Assembly: GCA_963695555.1 (NCBI GenBank)
Contig: CAVOGR010000002.1
Span: 64,001-128,000 of the forward strand
Reading direction: 5' to 3'
DNA: 64,000 nt
Source: an uncultured Gemmatimonadales bacterium
GTDB lineage: Bacteria; Gemmatimonadota; Gemmatimonadetes; Gemmatimonadales; GWC2-71-9
In this document: positions 24,661 to 38,031 of the stretch, piece by piece
Layout: the number at the start of each line of letters is the position of its first letter
How positions within the stretch are numbered: the stretch's first letter is position 1
Notes under the pieces: generated by a model
Told to the model about the DNA's origin: nothing
Databases searched by the model: none
What the model saw: the letters and a program-made list of their open reading frames with translations, nothing else
Translations under genes and position numbers: made by a program

Positions 24661-26355
24661 TCATCCGATCTTCCACAGGAAGGACAGGAGCTTCCAATTC
24701 ACGAAGTAGTACACCACGAACGCCGCGAGGAACACGAAGACCAGCACCATCGTCCCGCGTGAGGCGAGCAATGCGCCGCCGGCCGCGTCGCCTGCCGGCA
24801 GGGCACTCGGCGGATTCAGGATACCCGGCGGAAGCCCCCGGGTGGAACCTGCTTCCAGCTTCTTGCCGAAGAACACCGACCACACGGTCACCAGGATGAA
24901 GATCCCGCCACCTAGCGCGGCTAGGAGGCCGCCGATGGCCATGATGCCGATCAGGAGGTCGACCGCCGGAGAGAATTGGATGTCGAACGGCGCCTGGGCG
25001 AAGCTGATGTCCCAGTGCCGCCGCGGCACGCCGAAGGTGCCCGCGAAGGTCATGCAGATCGAAAAGATGAACATGCCGATGGCGAAGAGATACGGCTGGA
25101 TCTTGGCCAACGGCCAAAACGCGACCTCTTTTCGGAACACCAACGGAATCACGTAGTACGTCAGCCCCATGAAGGCGAGGGCCGTCCCGCTCACCACCGT
25201 GGCGTGGAAGTGGCCCGGAATGCGGAGGGTGTTGTGGGCGATGATGTTGATTTGCTCCGTGCCGAACGTGACGCCGGTGATGCCGCCGACAAATCCGAAC
25301 ACCACGACGGAGAACACCAAGGCACTGAACCCCGGATCGCCCCAGGGTGCTTTCCGGAGCCACTCGAATAAACCTTTGGTGAGCCCGCGCACCCGTTGCC
25401 CCAGTTCGATTCCTGCGGGGACGGTAAAGCCGTGGATCATGCTGGCGAGCACGGCCAGGTACATGGCATAGCTCGTGTTCCACACCTTCCAGGCTGGGCC
25501 CATGCCGGGATCGACCAGGAGGTGGTGCGCCGACGCCATGGAAATGAAGAGCACGTAGAGCACGAAGGCCGTGCGGCTGATCTTCTCGTTGATGACGACC
25601 GAGCCCACCGTCAACGCGCCCAGGAGGTACCACACCGACACCATGGCCGCCATGTTGATCTGCTGCGACGAGTGGCCCAGGCCCCACCAGACCAGCCGGT
25701 AGATCTGGGGATCCATATCCATCCAACCCATCGACCAGAAGAAGGTCGGGATGTAAGCCGCGGCCCCGTGCCCCAACGTGATGACCGCAATGATGGCCGC
25801 GGTCGTGGCACCGAAGGTGATGAGCGGCATCGAACCCTCGTAGGTCTTTTCCCGCTTCGCTACCACCAGCGTGCCGAAGAAGATGCCCACAACCAGCAAG
25901 GCACCGACCGCGAAGAGAATGACACCCAGGTAGAACAGCGGATCGGCCCGGAGCGGCACGTACGAGGTGAACAGGACGTCCGCCTTCCCCGCAATCATCA
26001 TCCACTCTACCATGACGGTTCCCAGCACCATGAGGCCGAAGGAAAACCATGCCAGCCGTGGAGCTGGGACGCGGCTGTTCAGAAGTACCGCGCTCGCGAA
26101 GTAGAGGATGGCCATCTCGAAGAACAGGATGAAGAAGATCAACATGTTCATCCCGTGAATGGTCAGCACGCGGTAGAACCACGTGGCGTCCAGTAGATGG
26201 ACCGCCTGCCACCGCGTCAGGAGGACGAGAATGGCCGCAATGCCACCGATCAGGAGCGTGACGGTGCCGGCGACCGCGTTGGCCTTGATGAGCGCGTCCG
26301 CCTGTGCGTGCACCTTGAGTCCCGTCGTGGGACAGACTCGGAAGTTCGAGTTCAT
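24661..26355 (-). CDS. Heme-copper oxidase superfamily subunit I, probable eNOR-type nitric oxide reductase
   Basis: All six His ligands present (TIHG, GHSSQQ, AHHL, GHFH). Gln replaces the cross-linked Tyr at H+4 of helix VI. Confidence 0.85.
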   Translation of the reverse strand: MNSNFRVCPTTGLKVHAQADALIKANAVAGTVTLLIGGIAAILVLLTRWQAVHLLDATWFYRVLTIHGMNMLIFFILFFEMAILYFASAVLLNSRVPAPRLAWFSFGLMVLGTVMVEWMMIAGKADVLFTSYVPLRADPLFYLGVILFAVGALLVVGIFFGTLVVAKREKTYEGSMPLITFGATTAAIIAVITLGHGAAAYIPTFFWSMGWMDMDPQIYRLVWWGLGHSSQQINMAAMVSVWYLLGALTVGSVVINEKISRTAFVLYVLFISMASAHHLLVDPGMGPAWKVWNTSYAMYLAVLASMIHGFTVPAGIELGQRVRGLTKGLFEWLRKAPWGDPGFSALVFSVVVFGFVGGITGVTFGTEQINIIAHNTLRIPGHFHATVVSGTALAFMGLTYYVIPLVFRKEVAFWPLAKIQPYLFAIGMFIFSICMTFAGTFGVPRRHWDISFAQAPFDIQFSPAVDLLIGIMAIGGLLAALGGGIFILVTVWSVFFGKKLEAGSTRGLPPGILNPPSALPAGDAAGGALLASRGTMVLVFVFLAAFVVYYFVNWKLLSFLWKIG

Positions 26356-26936
26356 TGGACGCCCTCCTCAGCGACAGCCTCGGTGTTCAGCGCCGTGGTT
26401 GGCCCGTCGACCACCACGACCTTGCCGAGCATCAGGTGGTGGCCGATGCCGCAGAACTCGTTGCAGATGATGCGGAAATCGCCGGCCTCGGTCGGGGTGA
26501 CGCGCAGGCCGTAGTCGTAGCCGGGAACGATCTGGAAATTGATGTTCAACGGATAGAGACTGAACCCGTGATTCACGTCGAGCGACGAGATGTGCAGGGT
26601 GTATTGCACGTCCTTCTGGAGACGCAAGACCGGACGCCAGCTATACATCGACGCCGAGAGATAGATGTCGCTCCCAGGGGGAGGTTCGACGACCGGAATG
26701 CCTTGCTCGGTCCCGACCTGATACGTGCGGATGAACTCTTCCGTGCGGGCGCGGAACGCCTCCGGCTCCACCCGGCTCCGGATGCCGGACGGATTCTGTC
26801 CGCCGCGAACGTGCCACAGGGGCATCATGGCGAACAGCACCATGCACCAGACGAAAGCCACGATTACCCAAAGGCGCTCGGTCTTGTGCGCGGGCTTCCA
26901 CCAGATCCCCTTGGGGGATTGGACGCCTGTATTCAT
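26352..26936 (-). CDS. Heme-copper subunit II with a CuA site
   Basis: Single TM helix; DVNHGF and CNEFCGIGHHLM CuA ligands. Confidence 0.9.
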   Translation of the reverse strand: MNTGVQSPKGIWWKPAHKTERLWVIVAFVWCMVLFAMMPLWHVRGGQNPSGIRSRVEPEAFRARTEEFIRTYQVGTEQGIPVVEPPPGSDIYLSASMYSWRPVLRLQKDVQYTLHISSLDVNHGFSLYPLNINFQIVPGYDYGLRVTPTEAGDFRIICNEFCGIGHHLMLGKVVVVDGPTTALNTEAVAEEGVQ

Positions 26937-26952: not shown

Positions 26953-27126
26953 TCAGGGGAGGGTGGCCTTCGGGAGGGATGCGATCTCCCACAGGCCCCA
27001 CAGGGTGTAGAACAGGAGCATGACGACGATTCCGGCTACTAAGAGCAGGAACGGGTTGTCGTACAGCCGCTGGCCCAACGGAACTTCGGTCCCCGCGTCC
27101 GTCGTCCTTTCGTGATCATCCGCCAT
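26953..27126 (-). CDS. 57-aa single-TM small subunit (not in the ORF track)
   Basis: Manual translation: MADDHERTTDAGTEVPLGQRLYDNPFLLLVAGIVVMLLFYTLWGLWEIASLPKATLP. AGGAGG RBS; fills the operon gap. Confidence 0.82.
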   Translation of the reverse strand: MADDHERTTDAGTEVPLGQRLYDNPFLLLVAGIVVMLLFYTLWGLWEIASLPKATLP

Positions 27127-27138
27127 CGTGCGCCTCCT

Positions 27139-27564
27139 CTAGGGTGTCCGGCCAGCCACACGAACTGGCTGCCCAACCACTTCGGCCACCGTGGTGTCTC
27201 GTACGAACCGGGCGACCTCCTCGCCCAACCGGCTCCAGCGCGAATGCACCGCGCAGGCCCGTTCATCCGAACATTCCGCCCGTCCCAACAGGCAGCGCCG
27301 GCGGGCGTCGACCGACTCGAATACCGAGACCACGTCCAGCAACGAGACTTCCTCGGCGGGCCGGCTGAGCTCGAAACCGCCGTGCTTTCCGCGGGATGAC
27401 TTGACCACACCGGCCCGAGCCATCGCGTGCATGATTTTCGACAGGTAGTTGGCGGGCACACCGATGGCCCCGGCAATCTCGGCGACCGGCTCGGGGCCGC
27501 TGCCCCAGCGCTTCGCCAAGTGGAACACCGCGCTGAGGGCGTATTCCGAGGTTCCAGAAAACAT
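27139..27564 (-). CDS. Rrf2 family Fe-S transcriptional regulator
   Basis: EYAL, YLSKI, SSRGKHGGFEL; C-x6-C-x5-C-x2-H ligand set; start at ATG 27564. Confidence 0.9.
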   Translation of the reverse strand: MFSGTSEYALSAVFHLAKRWGSGPEPVAEIAGAIGVPANYLSKIMHAMARAGVVKSSRGKHGGFELSRPAEEVSLLDVVSVFESVDARRRCLLGRAECSDERACAVHSRWSRLGEEVARFVRDTTVAEVVGQPVRVAGRTP

Positions 27565-27600
27565 CGTGGCGGGCTTCCCCCTGGACTTGGGCTTCTGGCT

Positions 27601-27640
27601 AATTACGATATTGACATGAGACAAGCATATTATGCATCCC
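27601..27640. promoter_or_regulatory. Candidate Rrf2 operator in the divergent promoter region
   Basis: AT-rich patch with TTGACA (27611-27616) and inverted repeat GCATA-T-TATGC (27625-27635). Confidence 0.45.
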
Positions 27641-27702
27641 GCGCGGGGTGAGTGCAAGATTGACCGCCTCGCCCAACCCCCGAACCCCTCGGCAGGAGGC
27701 CC

Positions 27703-29277
27703 ATGAGATCCTGGGGTAAGCGGCTCGAAGGGGCGGCATTTCGGGTCCTGTCCCGGGCCGACGCCTTCATGAACCGGCTCTACACCTGGCGCTTCAATCC
27801 GCTCTATCACAGCGGGGCGCTGGTGGTGGTGCTGTTCATCGCGGTGACTGTGACCGGGATCTATCTGCTTTTTTTCTATCGGGTTAGCGCGCCATACCAG
27901 TCGATTGCCAGGCTCCAGGACCAGGTCTGGTTGGGACGCTGGATTCGTTCGTTCCACCGCTATGCCTCCGACGCGGCGGTGGTTGCGGCCTTGGTTCACG
28001 CCTTCCGGGTATTCGCCCAAGGTCGCAGCTGGGGGCCCCGCACCCTGGCCTGGGTCAGTGGGGTGGCCCTGCTCTCCGTTACCCTGATCTGCGGCTGGAC
28101 CGGCTACGTCATGGTTTGGGACGAACAGGGCCTGGTCCTGGCCCGGGAGGGCGCCCGGTTCCTCGATGCCCTCCCCTTGTTCTCGGAGCCCATCAGCCGG
28201 GCATTCGTGGGCGACCGGCTGATCCCGAACGCGTTCTTCTTTCTGAATCTCTTCCTGCACGTCGCACTTCCGATCGGGATCGGCGTCGTGCTGTGGCTCC
28301 ACGTCTCGCGCGTGGCCAGAGCCGCGCTCCTGCCACCGCGCGCCCTGAGCTGGGCGGTCCTGGGCCTGCTGCTCGGACTCTCGGTCCTCTGGCCCGCCGC
28401 CCTCGGACCGGCGGCCGACTTGTTTCGATTGCCGCAACGAGCGCCGTTCGATCTGTTCTACTCAGGCTGGCTCCCGCTCACCAGGAATCTGTCGGCCGGT
28501 CTGGTCTGGCTCGTGGGTGGCACACTCGCCGCGATCTTCGTGGCCACCCCATGGTGGATCGGCGGCCGCAGCCGACGCGTCGAGTCGATGCAGCCCTCCT
28601 TCGTGGTCCAGCGGCTCTGCGATGCCTGCCGAACGTGCTATCTGGATTGCCCCTACGAAGCGATCGACATGGTGGCGCGTACTGACGGGCGCCCCGGTCT
28701 CGTCGCCCGCGTCGATCCGGCGCTCTGCGTCAGCTGCGGTATTTGCGCCGGGTCGTGCGCCCCGATGGGGGTCGGGCCCCCAAAGCGAACGGGCCGATAC
28801 CAGGTCGCCGCCGTCGAGCAGTTCATCGCCGACCACACGCTCGGCTCGGACGACGTCGTGATCATTGGCTGTTCCTTCGGCGCCGGGAACGTCACTCGAG
28901 GGACAACGTTCGACGGTGCATGTATCTTTCCGGTCGACTGCGCCGGGAGCATGCATACCTCGGTGGTGGAGTACCTGGTGCGGTCAGGCGTGGGTGGGGT
29001 GTTGATCGTATCTTGCCCCCCACGCGATTGCTGGCATCGCGAAGGCCCCAAGTGGCTGGAACAGCGGCTCTATCACGGTAGAGAGGCCGAGCTCAAGGAG
29101 CGGGTCGACCGGCGGCGCATCAGGCTGGCGCACGCCGGGCTCGCGGAACCATACCTCGTTCGGCAGGTGTTGGCTGAGTTCCGCCGTGAGCTGGCCGCGC
29201 TCGAAGTGGCCAGCGCGGAAGAGGATATCGCGCTGAGTATCGAGTGCGCGGCACCGGTAGAAGAGGTCGAGTCGTGA
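27703..29277 (+). CDS. Fusion of a cytochrome b N-terminal domain, a 2x[4Fe-4S] ferredoxin and an MvhD/FlpD-like domain
   Basis: Heme His pairs SFHRY..LVHA and FLHV..WLHV; CDACRTC..CP and CVSCGIC..C; IGC, DCAGS, SCPPRDCWHREG. Confidence 0.82.
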   Translation: MRSWGKRLEGAAFRVLSRADAFMNRLYTWRFNPLYHSGALVVVLFIAVTVTGIYLLFFYRVSAPYQSIARLQDQVWLGRWIRSFHRYASDAAVVAALVHAFRVFAQGRSWGPRTLAWVSGVALLSVTLICGWTGYVMVWDEQGLVLAREGARFLDALPLFSEPISRAFVGDRLIPNAFFFLNLFLHVALPIGIGVVLWLHVSRVARAALLPPRALSWAVLGLLLGLSVLWPAALGPAADLFRLPQRAPFDLFYSGWLPLTRNLSAGLVWLVGGTLAAIFVATPWWIGGRSRRVESMQPSFVVQRLCDACRTCYLDCPYEAIDMVARTDGRPGLVARVDPALCVSCGICAGSCAPMGVGPPKRTGRYQVAAVEQFIADHTLGSDDVVIIGCSFGAGNVTRGTTFDGACIFPVDCAGSMHTSVVEYLVRSGVGGVLIVSCPPRDCWHREGPKWLEQRLYHGREAELKERVDRRRIRLAHAGLAEPYLVRQVLAEFRRELAALEVASAEEDIALSIECAAPVEEVES

Positions 29278-29822
29278 TGGGACGCCCCGTGGTAATGGCG
29301 CTTGGAGCCGTCCTCGCGGTGGGCGGTATGATGGCACTGGGTGCGTTGTCCCAGATTCCGTACCAACCCGAGGAGGCGACGCACGCCGTGATTCGGCTCG
29401 CCTGGCGGGCCCGGGGCGTCGCGGTCAAGGAGTGCCGCACGATGACGCCGGAAGAGCTCGAGAAGGTGGCCGTTCATATGCGGCGGACCGAAGTGTGCGA
29501 AGGGCGGACCCTGCCCTATCAGCTCCGCGCGGTAGTTGACGGCGATGTCCGGGTCGATGAAGCCGTCGAGGCAGGCGGCGCCCGTGGCGACCGGCCGCTC
29601 TTCGTGCTCCACGATCTTCCGGTGGCCCCAGGCTCGCACCAAGTGGAGGTCTCATTTACTCGCGAGAGAGCGCCCGCAGAGGCTACGGACAGTACGGAGG
29701 TCACCCCGGCCAGACTGGAACTCGACCGATCGATCGAGGTGGTATCGGGGCAGGTCGTGCTCGTGACCTACGACCCGGATACCAAAACCATGATCGTTCA
29801 GGACGCGCCCGCGACTCGTTGA
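29277..29822 (+). CDS. Membrane-anchored hypothetical protein coupled to the cytochrome b fusion
   Basis: TGATG overlap; N-terminal TM; C..HMRR..C motif. Confidence 0.75.
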   Translation: MGRPVVMALGAVLAVGGMMALGALSQIPYQPEEATHAVIRLAWRARGVAVKECRTMTPEELEKVAVHMRRTEVCEGRTLPYQLRAVVDGDVRVDEAVEAGGARGDRPLFVLHDLPVAPGSHQVEVSFTRERAPAEATDSTEVTPARLELDRSIEVVSGQVVLVTYDPDTKTMIVQDAPATR

Positions 29823-29865: not shown

Positions 29866-31188
29866 ATGCCGCTACGCGTGATCATCCTCGGCGCAGCAGG
29901 CCGGGACTTCCATAACTTCAACGTCCATTTTCGAGACAATCCTGCCTACGACGTGGTTGCCTTCACTGCCACCCAGATTCCCAACATCAGCGGGCGCCGC
30001 TACCCACCCGAACTCGCGGGAGACCAATATCCCAAGGGCATACCGATCGAGCCCGAGGACGACCTCGAGAGCCTGATCCGAAGCCGCGATGTCAACGTGG
30101 TGGTCTTCGCCTACAGCGATGTGTCCCATGACTACGTGATGCACTTGGGCTCCCGGGCCCTGGCGGCCGGCGCCGACTACCTCCTGCTCGGACCCAAGCA
30201 CACCATGCTGAGTTCGCGGGTTCCGGTGGTGGCCATTTGCGCGGCGCGCACGGGATCGGGCAAGAGCCAAACCAGCCGCTATGTGGCAGCCATCTTGAGC
30301 GGCTGGGGGAAACGGGTCGTGGTGATTCGTCATCCGATGCCGTACGGAGACTTGGTCAAACAGGCGGTCCAGCGCTTCGCGAACTACGACGATCTCGAGC
30401 AACACGATGTAACCATCGAAGAACGCGAGGAATACGAGCCGCACATCGCGGCGGGCCGGGTGGTCTACGCCGGTGTCGATTACCAGAAGATCCTGGAACA
30501 GGCCGAACGGGAAGCCGACGTCATCATCTGGGACGGCGGCAACAACGACCTGCCGTTCTACCGACCGACCTTCCATATCGTCGTCGTCGATCCGCACCGC
30601 CCAGGCCACTCGGCCGAGTACCATCCCGGCGAGACCAACGTTCGGATGGCCGACTGCATCATCATCAACAAGATGGACACCGCGGCCCCGGAGCAGGTGC
30701 AGGCCGTGCGAGAGACCGTCACCAATCTCAATGCCCGGGCCACGATCGTCGAGGCCGACAGCCCCATTACCGTGGAGGGCGCCGAACAGATCCGGGGCAA
30801 GAGGGTCTTGGTGGTCGAAGACGGCCCGACCCTCACCCACGGCGGCATGGCATTCGGCGCGGGATGGGTGGCGGCCAAACAGCATGGCGCAGCCGCGGTC
30901 ATCGACCCCAGGCCCTATGCCGTGGGCTCGATTGCCCGGACCTTCGAGGCCTATCCCACCACCGGCGCGGTCCTTCCGGCCATGGGCTATGGCGACCAGC
31001 AGACCGAGGAATTGGAGCAGACCATCAATGACTCCCCAGCCGACCTCGTGATCATCGGCACCCCGATCGACCTGCGGCGCATCGTGAACATCACGAAGCC
31101 ATCGGTCCGGGTGCGCTACGAACTCGCCGAGCGGGGGGAACCCAAGCTCGAGGGATATCTGCGCGAAGCAATTAACCGTAAGTCGTAA
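29866..31188 (+). CDS. COG2403 P-loop protein (cyclic 2,3-diphosphoglycerate synthetase/arginine synthetase ArcE-like)
   Basis: GAAGRDFHNFN, RTGSGKSQT, RHPMPYGDL, TIEEREEYEPH, DGGNND, EDGPTLTHGGM. Confidence 0.82.
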   Translation: MPLRVIILGAAGRDFHNFNVHFRDNPAYDVVAFTATQIPNISGRRYPPELAGDQYPKGIPIEPEDDLESLIRSRDVNVVVFAYSDVSHDYVMHLGSRALAAGADYLLLGPKHTMLSSRVPVVAICAARTGSGKSQTSRYVAAILSGWGKRVVVIRHPMPYGDLVKQAVQRFANYDDLEQHDVTIEEREEYEPHIAAGRVVYAGVDYQKILEQAEREADVIIWDGGNNDLPFYRPTFHIVVVDPHRPGHSAEYHPGETNVRMADCIIINKMDTAAPEQVQAVRETVTNLNARATIVEADSPITVEGAEQIRGKRVLVVEDGPTLTHGGMAFGAGWVAAKQHGAAAVIDPRPYAVGSIARTFEAYPTTGAVLPAMGYGDQQTEELEQTINDSPADLVIIGTPIDLRRIVNITKPSVRVRYELAERGEPKLEGYLREAINRKS

Positions 31189-36653: not shown

Positions 36654-38031
36654 ATGCCGGACACCATCACCGCCACCATGGCCCGCTGGGCCTCCGACCT
36701 CACGTTCGACGACATCGGCGCCCAGGCCGTGCACGAGGCGAAGCGATACCTGCTGGATTCCCTGGGCTGCGCCTTCGGCGGCTTCCGCCAGGAAGACGCG
36801 CGGATCGCCATGGAGGTGCTCGACGAGGTCGGCGGGAAGGGACCGGCCACCATCCTCGGCAGCGGGAAGCGCACCGACCCTGTCACCGCGTCGCTCGCCA
36901 ATGCGCTGATGGTCCGGGTGATGGACTACAACGACATCTACTGGCAGCAAGATCCGTCGCACCCCTCGGACATCATTCCCGCTGCGATCGCCTGCGGCGA
37001 ACGGGCCGCAAGGAAGCGGCACAGACCTCGTCGTCGGCATCGTGCTGGGACATGAATTCGAGATGCGGATGTGCGAGGCTGCCTTCCCGGGCATCCGCGA
37101 GCGCGGCTGGCACCACGCGACACTCACCGCGTTCGTCTCGCCCATCGTCGCCGGACGCATGCTCGGCCTTCCGTGGGACAAGATCCAGCACGCGATCGGG
37201 ATCTCGGCTTCACGCCATGCCACCCTCGGGGCAGTGACCGCGGGCAAGCTCACCATGATGAAGAACACGGTCGACCCCATGGCCACCCAGTCGGGAGTGC
37301 TGGCGGCGCTCCTGGCCGAGAAGGGGTACACCGGCCCCGAGCACGTGATCGATGGGAAGGAAGGGCTGGCGCATTGCTTCGGGCCCGAGTGGAAGCTCGA
37401 CGTGCTGGTGGATGGGCTGGGCGATGCCTGGCGGATCGAGCGGTGCGGCATGAAGGCTTTTCCTACCGAGGCCCTCACCCACACCCCAATCTCGGCCGTG
37501 CTCGACATCGTGCACGCGAACGACCTGAAACCCGATGACATCGAGCAAGTCCACATCCGGTCACTGGCACGCGCGGCGGACATCCTCGCCGACCCGTCGA
37601 AATACGATCCGCGCACCAAGGAAACCGCCGATCACAGCCTCCCCTACGTGATCGCCGCCGCGATCGCGGATGGACAGGTGACGCCCGCGCAATTCGAAGC
37701 CGACAAGATCATGGATCCGATCATCCGCGCGCAGCTGAATAAGGTGAAGGTGGTGGCCGATCCGGAGATCGAAGCTGTCTTCCCCAAGCTTCAGCGCGTG
37801 ATCGTCACCGTGACGACCACCGACGGGCGCGAACTGACCAAGCAGCTGGATTACCCCAAGGGAGACCCGCGGAATCCGCTCACCGACCAGGAAGTCGAAG
37901 AGAAATTCGACGCCCTTGCGGGTCCAGTGCTCTCAAAAGGCGCGCGGGCCAAGCTCAAGCAGGCGGTATGGGATCTCGAGAAGCAGAAGTCGATTTCGAA
38001 GCTCATGGCTCTCTGCACCACTGACCGGTAG
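36654..38031 (+). pseudogene. MmgE/PrpD family dehydratase with a frameshift near 37010 (possibly a sequencing error)
   Basis: N-half: LLDSLGC, DYNDIY, HPSDII. C-half: GWHHAT, ETADHSLPY, PKGDPRNP. The two halves join after a 1-nt shift at about 37005-37015. Confidence 0.82.

What the first reader, a model, noticed from the sequence alone, without database searches (positions are those of the whole stretch)
27703..29822. Cytochrome b / 2x[4Fe-4S] / MvhD-like fusion divergent from the eNOR-like operon
Seen: a di-heme cytochrome b N-terminal domain with four His but no PEWY Qo motif (PFDLFY at the equivalent position), fused to a dicluster ferredoxin and an MvhD/FlpD-like Cys domain. A coupled membrane-anchored partner follows with C..HM..C. 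There is no Rieske, cytochrome c1, hydrogenase or Hdr gene nearby. Inference: a Rieske-less transmembrane electron conduit sharing the Rrf2-controlled promoter region, possibly delivering electrons or reduced metal to the NO reductase.
Basis: partly seen in the sequence, partly recalled or inferred. Interest (0 to 1): 0.7.

Follow-up and report, generated by a model that had tools for sequence, protein, structure and literature searches.

The report
Cytochrome b iron-sulfur partner of eNOR
A membrane protein that joins a two-haem cytochrome b to cytoplasmic iron-sulfur domains, with a small periplasmic companion, is encoded beside an eNOR-type nitric-oxide reductase here and in nearly all related genomes searched, and it likely passes electrons to that N2O-forming enzyme or helps to build its copper site; neither role has been tested.

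Summary
Window 27703-29277 encodes a 524-residue protein made of a bc-type cytochrome b, two [4Fe-4S] motifs and an MvhD/FlpD domain. All haem and cluster ligands are invariant in 77 relatives. A coupled gene (29277-29822) encodes a membrane-anchored periplasmic beta-sandwich. In most relatives that domain is fused to the C-terminus.

The divergent operon is an eNOR: the Q/Y/S/H signature is matched with the published spacing. Linkage is near-obligatory:
- Gemmatimonadota: 93 of 401 genomes have both genes, 3 the fusion only, 2 eNOR only, and 90 have them adjacent.
- Bacteroidota: 7 of 7.
- eNOR-seeded metagenome loci with full flanks: 20 of 22.

A second eNOR subclade lacks both the fusion and SCO1.

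The function is untested. My best reading (0.4) is a Rieske-less quinol/transmembrane electron module feeding eNOR. The main rival (0.3) is a reductant supply for CuA maturation with SCO1.

The fusion is already in print as the 'PDWF-FeS' cytochrome b clade (Kao & Hunte 2014). Its place in an eNOR operon is described for Ferrigenium in a 2026 preprint. This scan has found the same family on at least 18 other genomes.

This is a new member of a known but uncharacterised kind.

The parts
27703..29277 (+). Cytochrome b / 2x[4Fe-4S] / MvhD-like fusion protein (524 aa, P0001)
   Evidence: ORF and translation. Pfam. AlphaFold2 model with pLDDT 93.8 and pTM 0.91.
27703..28572 (+). Membrane domain, residues 1-290. 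It has six predicted TM helices that match cytochrome b helices A-F. The haem ligands are H85/H99 and H186/H200. The Qo-like motif is F249-D250-L251-F252.
   Evidence: PDB profile search: best match cytochrome b6, E 2.9e-36. Foldseek aligns 285-311 columns to bc1 cytochrome b, E about 1e-6. Invariant His. Motif counts. Charge distribution of the loops.
28600..28770 (+). Dicluster ferredoxin domain, residues 300-356. Motifs CxxCxxCxxxCP and CxxCxxCxxxC.
   Evidence: Pfam Fer4_7. Invariant Cys. NCBIfam match to the HdrA2 C-terminus, residues 299-502, E 1.5e-15 and below the cut-off.
28855..29214 (+). MvhD/FlpD-like domain, residues 385-504. Cys 390, 413, 438 and 443 are the predicted [2Fe-2S] ligands.
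   Evidence: Pfam FlpD 6.4e-11. Alignment to solved MvhD chains with all four Cys matched, E 0.015-0.026.
29277..29822 (+). Partner (181 aa from ATG 29277): an N-terminal TM helix plus a periplasmic beta-sandwich. It carries a loop C64-x13-H78-M79-R80-x4-C85 and D116 (numbering of the 192-aa ORF).
   Evidence: Overlap of start and stop codons. Model pLDDT 93.8. Conservation. Fused to the C-terminus in 94 of 150 family representatives. Complex model score 0.89 against 0.01 for the best control.
27571..27702 (.). Divergent intergenic region shared with the Rrf2-eNOR operon. It holds an AT-rich island in a 64% G+C genome.
   Evidence: Sequence. Comparison with 12 related loci. The operator is not demonstrated in the window.
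27139..27570 (-). Rrf2-family regulator, first gene of the divergent operon
   Evidence: Pfam Rrf2 1.6e-29. NCBIfam rrf2_super above its cut-off. NsrR and IscR models below their cut-offs.
26953..27126 (-). 57-aa single-TM protein conserved upstream of eNOR subunit II
   Evidence: ORF. tblastn hits in Gemmatimonadota, Proteobacteria and part of the Bacteroidota loci. No family hit.
26352..26936 (-). eNOR subunit II with CuA motif (CNEFCGIGHHLM)
   Evidence: Translation. Pfam COX2. NCBIfam CoxB, below its cut-off.
24661..26355 (-). eNOR subunit I. It has H228-x3-Q232 in place of the cross-link Tyr, plus Y243, S305 and H308.
   Evidence: Pfam COX1 3.7e-62. The signature offsets +11, +73 and +76 are the same as for Q245/Y256/S318/H321 in Dataset S1 of PMC11214002.
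23770..24654 (-). SCO1/SenC-type copper chaperone with a membrane anchor. C178-x3-C182 and H263.
   Evidence: Pfam SCO1-SenC 4.4e-22. The motif is invariant in 20 of 20 aligned homologues.

Best explanation
The two genes encode a Rieske-less, bc-type cytochrome b module that is genetically tied to one subclade of eNOR nitric-oxide reductases and likely acts as that enzyme's electron-transfer partner. The module has two b haems, two [4Fe-4S] sites, one predicted MvhD-type [2Fe-2S] site and a periplasmic beta-sandwich.

In this inferred scheme:
- Quinol would be oxidised at the conserved Qo-like pocket on the periplasmic side.
- One electron would leave through the periplasmic His-Met domain towards CuA of eNOR.
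- The other would run through haems bL and bH into the cytoplasmic Fe-S chain, and from there to an unidentified cytoplasmic acceptor.

Shown here: the domain make-up, the invariant ligands, the predicted topology, the fusion or split relation of the partner, and the gene linkage.

Inferred: cofactor occupancy, quinol binding, the direction of electron flow and the acceptor.
For: (1) Linkage.
- Genome contigs: 62 of 73 loci with a relative hold the eNOR subunit I gene in the fetched flank. Nine of the other 11 are cut by a contig end on that side.
- Gemmatimonadota: of 401 genomes, 93 have both genes, 3 the fusion only, 2 eNOR only (contig-end fragments) and 303 neither. The genes are adjacent and divergent in 90.
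- Bacteroidota: in a sample of 401 genomes, the 7 with eNOR at 52% identity or more are the same 7 that have the fusion, and both lie on the same contig and strand.
- Metagenomes: 80 loci were found with an eNOR-only query. The fusion is present in 20 of the 22 that have at least 4 kb on both sides.

(2) A quinol-site signature is kept across a family only 25-35% identical. D250 at the PEWY acid position is D in 71 of 77 rows and N in 5. W139 and D140 (the cd-helix 'PWDQ' region) are near-invariant and G134 is invariant. Foldseek aligns helices A-F, ef loop included, to bc1 cytochrome b.

(3) Every redox ligand on both sides of the membrane is invariant. This fits a path that runs through both haems.

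(4) The partner is predicted to sit on the Qo-like surface. The complex score was 0.89 against 0.01 for the best of 3 controls. That mark was reached by 116 of 157 solved complexes and 2 of 215 mismatched pairs. The runs agree in at least 90% of contacts, and the partner's pLDDT is at least 80. The counts hold only roughly, because my own alignments were used and haem rode along. Contacts include cytochrome b residues 239-252 and 86-94 with partner residues 21-44.

(5) Two family representatives that lack the His-Met motif carry a C-terminal class-I cytochrome c domain (CxxCH) instead. A pure electron carrier therefore stands at the same place.

(6) A 2026 preprint (passages read) reports cytochrome b/Fe-S proteins in the Ferrigenium eNOR operon. 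One has FAD- and NADH-binding domains. The proteins were detected in the proteome under denitrifying conditions, and the authors propose quinol:NAD+ coupling.

(7) The own genome holds a cd1 NirS-like gene (E 1.6e-109), which is a source of NO.
Against: - The periplasmic domain has no recognisable redox cofactor motif. It gave no Pfam or NCBIfam hit, no Foldseek match at E <= 0.001 and only generic beta-sandwich matches with Z <= 7.3.
- Its His-Met loop is not among the residues listed at the modelled interface with cytochrome b.
- The fusion and the SCO1 paralogue come and go together. All 44 metagenome loci with the fusion have SCO1. L117 and L155 have neither, and nor do the three loci of the second eNOR subclade. 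This fits an assembly role as well or better.
- In same-strand operons the gene lies among biogenesis genes: SCO1, CtaB, CtaA.
- One lineage (L070; probably also G345, by its like identity to the query, not checked) has the fusion, the partner and CtaA with no eNOR found.
- A second eNOR subclade with the same active-site signature has no such protein. The fusion is therefore not a general requirement of eNOR.
- The R. marinus enzyme was purified as a two-subunit protein that was active with TMPD and ascorbate (PMC11214002, section read).
- No cytoplasmic acceptor is identified.
Confidence: 0.4

Rival explanations
1. Assembly factor. The module would carry electrons outward from a cytoplasmic donor, through the Fe-S chain and both haems, to the periplasmic His-Met domain. 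There it would reduce Cu(II), or the CxxxC disulfide of the co-inherited SCO1 or of apo-subunit II. CuA of eNOR could then be built under oxidising, NO-rich conditions.
For: - SCO1 and the fusion are gained and lost together. All 44 metagenome loci with the fusion have SCO1, and 5 of 5 loci without the fusion (L117, L155, L156-L158) show no SCO1.
- In L117 the same operon position holds a DsbD_2 membrane protein and an HMA P-type ATPase, that is, metal-delivery genes.
- The gene order is COX1-[CtaB]-SCO1-fusion-partner-[CtaA] in L019, L020 and L024, with overlapping stop and start between SCO1 and the fusion in L024.
- L070 has the fusion, the partner and CtaA without eNOR.
- His, Met and Asp are typical copper ligands, and the Cys pair behaves as a structural disulfide: 78 rows have both Cys, 30 have neither, and no row has only one.
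- The His-Met loop is not listed at the interface with cytochrome b. It could therefore face a third party.
- By recall, not tested here: CcoG/FixG, a membrane 2x[4Fe-4S] protein with an Ig-like C-terminal domain, is a cupric reductase for cbb3 oxidase assembly.
Against: - The strong conservation of the Qo-type acid and of the cd-helix WD has no obvious role in a plain wire.
- The variants with a cytochrome c domain lack the His-Met site, so the domain is not always a metal chaperone.
- The co-variation with SCO1 rests on about three evolutionary events.
- No PCuAC-like or FixG_C family was hit by the partner.
Confidence: 0.3
2. NOX/FRE-like outward conduit for detoxification. Cytoplasmic reductant (ferredoxin or NAD(P)H through an unlinked partner) would be passed through Fe-S and both haems directly to eNOR. 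NO could then be removed independently of the quinone and cytochrome c pools.
For: - The redox chain spans the whole membrane and its ligands are invariant.
- An Rrf2-family regulator heads the divergent operon, and a Crp/FNR-type regulator stands in 32 Bacteroidota loci.
- Published variants carry flavin or NAD(H)-binding domains (PMC4122944 passages; Ferrigenium preprint passages).
Against: - It does not explain the conserved Qo-type motif.
- It would waste reductant in Fe(II)-oxidising autotrophs, which also carry the module (L020; Ferrigenium).
- No periplasmic redox cofactor is evident.
Confidence: 0.15
3. Electron supply to haem A synthase (CtaA), for the haem As that eNOR uses.
For: - CtaA follows the partner gene in L070 and lies downstream in L020.
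- PMC11214002 states that eNOR uses haem As in both sites and that many eNOR operons hold ctaA (section read).
Against: - CtaA is a neighbour in only 2 of the loci I annotated, and it is not among the conserved neighbour clusters of 73 loci.
- The periplasmic domain would have no role.
- The fusion tracks eNOR in Gemmatimonadota (96 and 95 of 401 genomes). I did not count A-type oxidases there, so the contrast with haem A use in general was not tested.
Confidence: 0.05
4. An ordinary subunit of a canonical bc1/b6f complex, or of an Mvh/Hdr-type hydrogenase system, as the database names suggest ('hydrogenase iron-sulfur subunit').
For: Pfam Cytochrome_B and FlpD hits. Names given by sources.
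Against: - No Rieske, c1/f, hydrogenase or Hdr family among the 60 window proteins scanned.
- None among the conserved neighbour clusters.
- The best NCBIfam models all fall far below their cut-offs.
Confidence: 0.02

Closest known systems
'PDWF-FeS' clade of cytochrome b (Kao & Hunte 2014, Genome Biol Evol, PMC4122944; passages read)
   Same: [quoted passage not shown] The Qo motif has Asp and Phe (PDWF). No Rieske protein is in the cluster. The window protein has the same architecture and an x-D-(W/L)-F motif.
   Different: - That paper only places three sequences in a tree. It names no eNOR link, no periplasmic partner and no function.
- The window motif reads FDLF.
- I did not align the named sequences, so membership rests on architecture and motif.
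Cytochrome b/[Fe-S] genes of the Ferrigenium straubiae eNOR operon (bioRxiv 10.64898/2026.01.22.701106; passages read)
   Same: bc1-chain-C-like cytochrome b with Fe-S domains. It is encoded in an operon with eNOR II, eNOR I, haem o synthase, sco1 and a protein of unknown function. It was detected in the proteome under denitrifying conditions.
   Different: - One Ferrigenium copy carries FAD- and NADH-binding domains. The window protein ends in an MvhD-like domain.
- The authors call these genes 'rather unusual', whereas here they are near-obligatory across phyla.
Cytochrome b6 plus subunit IV (b6f), and cytochrome b of bc1
   Same: Four-helix di-haem core with the His ligands in register (E 2.9e-36 to b6). 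Helices A-F and the ef loop are aligned by Foldseek. The cd-helix 'WD' resembles the PWDQ of b6.
   Different: - No Rieske or c1/f partner, and no helices G and H.
- His spacing is 13/13.
- Fe-S domains stand on the n-side, where the Qi site would open.
- A TM helix plus a beta-sandwich stands where the Rieske and c1 anchors would act.
MvhD and the C-terminal ferredoxin-MvhD part of HdrA2
   Same: A dicluster ferredoxin followed by an MvhD fold with four Cys. In Mvh-Hdr complexes MvhD is an electron-transfer adaptor (recalled).
   Different: No hydrogenase or Hdr genes nearby. The domain is tethered to a membrane cytochrome.
CcoG/FixG cupric reductase of cbb3 oxidase assembly (recalled, not tested)
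   Same: A membrane protein with two cytoplasmic [4Fe-4S] clusters and a beta-sandwich C-terminal domain. It is encoded with an HCO and its copper-delivery genes.
   Different: No cytochrome b and no sequence relation found. The partner hit no Pfam family. CcoG acts on cytoplasmic copper.
Transmembrane di-haem reductases (NOX/FRE, Dcytb, MsrQ) (recalled, not tested)
   Same: Two b haems stacked across the membrane move electrons from a cytoplasmic donor to an outside acceptor.
   Different: Unrelated folds. Those proteins have no Qo-type motif and no Fe-S chain.

Membership tests
Cytochrome b superfamily (Pfam PF00033) | Four His on helices B and D that ligate two b haems | tested here: met
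   H85/H99 and H186/H200 are invariant in 77 rows. They align with the b6 ligands.
Cytochrome b superfamily (Pfam PF00033) | Score above Pfam's gathering cut-off | tested here: met
   58.5 bits against a cut-off of 27.2.
Canonical Rieske/cytochrome b complex (bc1, b6f) | Rieske iron-sulfur protein and cytochrome c1/f encoded with cytochrome b | tested here: not met
   None among the 60 window proteins scanned. None among the conserved neighbour clusters of 73 loci.
Canonical Rieske/cytochrome b complex (bc1, b6f) | PEWY-type Qo motif | tested here: inconclusive
   FDLF in the window and x-D-(W/L)-F in the family, with D in 71 of 77 rows. This corresponds to the published PDWF variant. The acid is kept, but Pro and Tyr are not.
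'PDWF-FeS' cytochrome b clade (Kao & Hunte 2014) | Cytochrome b fused to a non-Rieske Fe-S domain (4Fe-4S plus MvhD), D and F in the Qo motif, no Rieske in the cluster | tested here: met
   Architecture, motif and context. No direct alignment to the published accessions was done.
MvhD/FlpD (Pfam PF02662) | Four conserved Cys of the [2Fe-2S] site, and a score above the cut-off | tested here: met
   42.8 bits against a cut-off of 22.3. C390, C413, C438 and C443 align with the Cys of solved MvhD chains and are invariant or near-invariant. Cluster occupancy is not testable here.
MvhD/FlpD (Pfam PF02662) | Association with Mvh hydrogenase or Hdr/Flx genes | tested here: not met
   No such family in the window or among the conserved neighbours.
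2x[4Fe-4S] ferredoxin (Pfam PF12838) | Two CxxCxxCxxxC motifs | tested here: met
   C306/309/312/316 and C342/345/348/352. Fer4_7 scores 29.1 bits against a cut-off of 27.
ExtP b-type cytochrome (NCBIfam NF040969) | Score above the curated cut-off | tested here: not met
   104.8 bits against a cut-off of 290.
eNOR (the neighbouring enzyme) | Gln in place of the cross-link Tyr, with Tyr, Ser and His at +11, +73 and +76 (Dataset S1 of PMC11214002) | tested here: met
   Q232, Y243, S305 and H308. The related genome behind L017 is listed with ENOR = 1 in the paper's Dataset.
eNOR (the neighbouring enzyme) | NO reductase activity | not testable with these tools
   Shown only for the R. marinus enzyme (PMC11214002).
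sNOR (norSY-senC-orf1 cluster) | Asn at the cross-link Tyr position | tested here: not met
   The window has Gln, not Asn.
CcoG/FixG-type cupric reductase | FixG-type membrane domain and FixG_C Ig-like domain | tested here: inconclusive
   No Pfam hit for the partner at E <= 0.01. Structural searches gave only generic beta-sandwiches.

The most novel reading that the evidence does not exclude
The module is a Rieske-less, Q-cycle-like bifurcating quinol oxidase that is hard-wired to NO reduction. The very high potential of NO/N2O would pull one quinol electron out through the periplasmic domain and eNOR. The second electron would be driven inward through bL and bH into the Fe-S chain, where it would reduce a cytoplasmic carrier (a ferredoxin-type partner, or NAD+ in the flavin-bearing variants). 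NO respiration would then both build membrane potential and make cytoplasmic reductant.
Probability: 0.12. Interest if true: 0.85.

Novelty: new member of a known kind. Interest (0 to 1): 0.55.

Why it matters
eNOR-type enzymes are described as widespread environmental sources of N2O (PMC11214002, abstract and sections read). The text I read names no natural electron donor and no assembly pathway for them.

One large eNOR subclade in Gemmatimonadota, Bacteroidota, Proteobacteria and metagenomes is inherited almost without exception together with this cytochrome b/Fe-S module and a dedicated SCO1. Deciding whether the module feeds eNOR or builds it bears on two questions:
- whether NO reduction by these organisms conserves energy;
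- whether gene-based N2O budgets should treat the two eNOR subclades alike.

The module is also a natural test case for what a Qo-type site does without a Rieske protein.

Tried and rejected
- **sNOR idea.** I asked whether the enzyme is an sNOR and the fusion is 'orf1' of the norSY-senC-orf1 cluster of ammonia oxidisers. I rejected it because the active site has Gln, not Asn. I never saw the content of orf1.
- **Wasted paper searches.** In some searches the terms matched snoRNA and unrelated words.
- **The P-loop gene at 29866-31188 as part of the module.** It is found only in the three closest loci, L001-L003, so I dropped it.
- **Fold of the partner.** Foldseek against the PDB gave no match at E <= 0.001. 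VIA-align wide gave only generic beta-sandwiches, best Z 7.3. The Atlas gave only 'hypothetical protein' clusters.
- **Larger fusions.** A search for fusions to SCO1, COX2 or CtaA (search for homologous proteins, 'longer') found nothing at E <= 1e-10. The tool itself calls this weak evidence.
- **Taxon names.** The listing of cluster members returned no taxon name for ten representatives. The context of the cytochrome c-bearing variants therefore stays unknown.
- **A flawed script.** My first script for fused versus split forms misclassified the Bacteroidota proteins. It was replaced.
- **Rrf2 operator.** A 7+7 palindrome beats shuffles only in L003, L004 and L016, and not in the window.
- **Haems in the complex job.** The three haems that rode along are not scored. 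They told nothing about a third haem site.
- **Second Zetaproteobacteria search.** The homologue search with the Zetaproteobacteria copy showed the same architecture in Mariprofundaceae and Gammaproteobacteria MAGs, but no named cultured carrier.
Full report
**What is in the window**

The window has about 64% G+C. Names on close homologues point to Gemmatimonadales.

On the + strand, 27703-29277 encodes a 524-residue protein. Pfam finds three domains:
- Cytochrome_B at residues 32-202 (E 1e-15);
- a dicluster ferredoxin, Fer4_7, at 306-352 (1.4e-6);
- FlpD/MvhD at 407-500 (6.4e-11).

The NCBIfam models all fall far below their cut-offs. The best are ExtP at 104.8 bits against a cut-off of 290, and the HdrA2 C-terminus.

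A second ORF follows. Its likely start is ATG 29277. That codon shares one base with the stop TGA at 29275-29277, and AAGAGG lies 10 nt upstream. Neither Pfam nor NCBIfam hits it.

On the - strand, diverging from a 132-bp intergenic region, lie five genes:
- an Rrf2-family regulator;
- a 57-residue membrane protein;
- a CuA-type subunit II;
- a haem-copper subunit I;
- a membrane-anchored SCO1/SenC.

No Rieske, cytochrome c1/f, hydrogenase or Hdr family was hit among the 60 window proteins that I scanned.

I aligned 77 family members at 27-73% identity to the window protein. These residues are conserved:
- The four haem His (85, 99, 186, 200) are invariant.
- The eight ferredoxin Cys are invariant, except C309, which is near-invariant.
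- The four MvhD-domain Cys (390, 413, 438, 443) are invariant, except C443, which is near-invariant.

The four MvhD-domain Cys line up with the four Cys of solved MvhD chains, although that single-sequence match is weak (E 0.015-0.026).

A profile of the family matches cytochrome b6 best (E 2.9e-36) with the His ligands in register.

The AlphaFold2 model is confident (pLDDT 93.8, pTM 0.91) and shows six long membrane helices. Foldseek aligns 285-311 columns of it to full-length bc1 cytochrome b, that is, helices A-F with the ef loop.

The loop charges agree with the cytochrome b topology. The N-terminus is cytoplasmic, and the linker that leads into the Fe-S domains is cytoplasmic too.

At the PEWY position the window reads F249-D250-L251-F252. 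In the family it is x-D-(W/L)-F, with Asp in 71 of 77 rows and Asn in 5. W139 and D140 in the cd helix are near-invariant.

**The partner is part of the same protein**

HMMER against 1.84 billion cluster representatives found 3504 relatives at E <= 1e-3 and 412 at E <= 1e-30.
- Of the best 150 representatives, 107 are longer than 620 residues.
- Of the same 150, 94 carry the partner domain at their C-terminus (E <= 1e-3).
- Among the 73 related genome loci the domain is fused in 44, a separate downstream ORF in 25, and not found in 4.

An earlier script was wrong on this point and was replaced.

The split form of the window is therefore the minority state.

The partner model (pLDDT 93.8) has one TM helix and a beta-sandwich. 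It has no specific structural relative. Foldseek gave nothing at E <= 0.001, and VIA-align gave a best Z of 7.3 to assorted sandwiches.

I aligned 108 periplasmic domains.
- His78-Met79 is kept in 94 rows.
- Asp116 is kept in 94 rows.
- The two Cys are both present in 78 rows and both absent in 30. No row has only one.
- His-Met is kept in 23 rows that lack the Cys pair.

The Cys pair thus behaves as a structural disulfide, and His-Met(-Arg) with Asp116 is the functional core.

Fourteen rows lack His-Met. Two of them (P0371, P0391) carry instead a C-terminal class-I cytochrome c domain with CxxCH.

A complex model of the cytochrome b domain (residues 1-300) with the partner supports binding.
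- The score was 0.89, against 0.01 for the best of 3 controls.
- That mark was reached by 116 of 157 solved complexes and 2 of 215 mismatched pairs.
- The runs agree in at least 90% of contacts, and the partner's pLDDT is at least 80.
- The counts hold only roughly here, because my own alignments were used and haem rode along.

In the model the partner's TM helix packs on helices B and E. Its juxtamembrane stretch (residues 21-44) lies on residues 86-94 and on the ef loop 239-252, which holds the Qo-type motif. The His-Met loop is not among the listed contacts.

**The neighbour is an eNOR**

Dataset S1 of Murali et al. 2024 (PMC11214002; supplement read) gives Q245, Y256, S318 and H321 for eNOR, where the B-family has Y237, Y248, S309 and T312. 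For sNOR and bNOR it gives Asn at the first position.

The window protein has Q232, Y243, S305 and H308, with the same offsets.

In the same paper's Dataset, 10 of the 12 Gemmatimonadales genome rows have ENOR = 1. They include the genome behind locus L017, whose enzyme is 84% identical to the window's.

I had briefly suspected an sNOR and the norSY-senC-orf1 cluster of ammonia oxidisers. The Gln rules that out.

The own genome is 87% complete. It holds a cd1 NirS-like gene (E 1.6e-109). With the two models tried, no NirK or NosZ scored above its cut-off.

**Linkage**

A scan of one genome per species found 75 loci. Two of them matched only the ferredoxin motif.

Of the other 73, 62 hold the eNOR subunit I gene in the fetched flank, 56 hold subunit II and 63 hold a SCO1-like gene. 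Eleven lack subunit I:
- Nine are cut by a contig end on the relevant side (L005, L018, L021, L022, L046, L057, L058, L064, L066).
- Two (L060, L070) have more than 6 kb there and no eNOR.

Two arrangements occur.
- In Gemmatimonadota the genes diverge, as in the window.
- In Bacteroidota, an alphaproteobacterium and a zetaproteobacterium they form one same-strand operon: small TM protein, subunit II, subunit I, [CtaB], SCO1, fusion (plus partner), [CtaA].

In a sample of 401 Gemmatimonadota genomes I counted the fusion in 96 and eNOR at 68% identity or more in 95.
- 93 have both, 3 have the fusion only, and 2 have eNOR only (both are fragments at contig ends).
- The genes are adjacent and divergent in 90.
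- Before counting I dropped the weak places that match only the cytochrome b domain (E 1e-21 to 1e-26), which are ordinary cytochrome b genes.
- I also dropped four genomes whose enzyme is only 46-48% identical.

In a sample of 401 Bacteroidota genomes, 7 have the fusion. The same 7 have eNOR at 52% identity or more, on the same contig and strand.

Seeding instead with an eNOR-only alignment gave 80 metagenome loci. The fusion is present in 44 of them, and in 20 of the 22 that have at least 4 kb on both sides.

**Limits of the linkage**

Six Bacteroidota genomes and four Gemmatimonadota genomes carry an enzyme only 40-48% identical. In the three that I fetched it shows the same GH-x-x-Q-Q signature. 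These genomes have no fusion at the thresholds used. Among the 19 neighbouring ORFs scanned in the three loci there is no SCO1 either.

The two metagenome exceptions also lack SCO1. In L117 the place after eNOR is taken by a DsbD_2 membrane protein and an HMA P-type ATPase.

Conversely, all 44 metagenome loci with the fusion have SCO1.

So SCO1 and the fusion behave as one unit. That unit is specific to one eNOR subclade and is not needed by all eNORs.

L070 (probably the lineage of G345, judged only by its like identity to the query) has the fusion, the partner and haem A synthase with no eNOR found.

The P-loop gene after the partner (29866-31188) is conserved only in the three closest loci and is not part of the module.

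**Mechanism**

What the data show is a protein whose conserved ligands form a chain. The chain runs from a cytoplasmic MvhD-type site, through two [4Fe-4S] sites and two stacked haems, to the periplasmic face. There a conserved His-Met domain sits on a conserved Qo-type pocket.

I commit, at 0.4, to an electron-transfer partner of eNOR working as a Rieske-less bc-type module. In this scheme:
- Quinol would be oxidised at the Qo-like pocket.
- One electron would go out by the periplasmic domain to CuA.
- The other would go inward through the haems to the Fe-S chain.

The arguments for this reading are:
- the strict conservation of the Qo acid and the cd-helix motif;
- the predicted seat of the partner on that surface;
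- the replacement of His-Met by a cytochrome c domain in two representatives;
- the flavin/NAD(H)-bearing variants in print.

The arguments against it, which favour an assembly role with SCO1 (0.3), are:
- the co-variation with SCO1;
- the gene's position among biogenesis genes;
- the metal-delivery genes that take its place in L117;
- the CtaA-linked copy without eNOR;
- the absence of any recognisable periplasmic redox cofactor;
- the copper-like His/Met/Asp residues.

A NOX-like outward supply of cytoplasmic reductant to eNOR (0.15) and a role for haem A synthase (0.05) remain possible. A canonical bc or Mvh/Hdr subunit is contradicted by the context.

**What is known**

Kao & Hunte 2014 (PMC4122944; passages read) named a 'PDWF-FeS' clade. 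It comprises:
- cytochrome b from Alicycliphilus, with ferredoxin and flavin oxidoreductase domains.

They found no Rieske protein in the cluster.

A 2026 preprint on Ferrigenium straubiae (10.64898/2026.01.22.701106; passages read) lists two bc1-chain-C-like cytochrome b/Fe-S genes in the eNOR operon. It calls them unusual, reports the proteins in a proteome, and proposes a quinol:NAD+ oxidoreductase or a supercomplex.

Murali et al. do not mention such a gene:
- main text and readable supplements searched;
- bioRxiv version searched;
- the SI Appendix PDF could not be read;
- the neighbourhood figures are images.

My searches for 'cytochrome b, MvhD, fusion' and 'eNOR, cytochrome b, iron-sulfur, nitric oxide reductase' gave no functional study.

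Earlier agents of this scan reached the same family on at least 18 other genomes. One of their notes led me to the Kao & Hunte paper, which I then read myself.

**Verdict**

The window holds an ordinary split-form member of a published but uncharacterised protein family. Its near-obligatory pairing with one eNOR subclade, and with a dedicated SCO1, is well supported. Its function is open and testable.

Noticed in passing
window 29866-31188 (+): A 440-aa P-loop protein with only a weak cobW/ZigA-like match stands directly after the partner gene. It is conserved only in the three closest loci (L001-L003), so it is probably unrelated to the module.
   Followed up: partly
window 27571-27702; L003, L004, L016: The divergent intergenic region holds an AT-rich island in a GC-rich genome. 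L003 and L004 carry a perfect palindrome, CATGATA-T-TATCATG, and L016 carries ATTATCATGATAAT. The window has only a degenerate version. This may be the operator of the Rrf2 regulator.
   Followed up: partly
L024 6521-7438 and the other Bacteroidota loci: In Chitinophagaceae-type loci eNOR subunit II is about 306 aa and carries a C-terminal cytochrome c domain (Pfam 1.3e-9). A Crp/FNR-type regulator lies upstream in 32 loci, in place of Rrf2.
   Followed up: partly
L020 8321-14563: A zetaproteobacterial locus has two tandem copies of the fusion (510 and 534 aa). They are followed by the partner, a remote COX1-like 460-aa protein (Pfam 5e-13) and CtaA.
   Followed up: no
L156, L157, L158 (G412, G270, G712): A second eNOR subclade (40-48% identical, with the same GH-x-x-QQ signature) has neither the fusion nor SCO1 nearby. 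In two of the three loci an ORF of 259-296 aa with no Pfam hit follows subunit I.
   Followed up: partly
L117 11720-14922: A metagenome eNOR locus without the fusion or SCO1 has a DsbD_2 membrane protein and an HMA-domain P-type ATPase directly after subunit I.
   Followed up: partly
window 36654-37055 and 37042-38031 (+): The MmgE/PrpD N-terminal domain is split over two overlapping ORFs (profile positions 2-115 and 125-238). This may be a frameshift or a true split. It lies at the head of the citrate-lyase-like operon that another finding of this scan covers.
   Followed up: no
own genome G000:C7:363175-364320 (-): A cd1-type nitrite reductase (NirS-like) domain lies within a 733-aa open frame. 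With the two models tried, no NirK or NosZ scored above its cut-off. The genome is 87% complete.
   Followed up: no
P0371, P0391 (family representatives): These variants are 769 and 792 aa long. Their periplasmic sandwich lacks the His-Met motif and is followed by a class-I cytochrome c domain. Their genomic context could not be fetched.
   Followed up: partly
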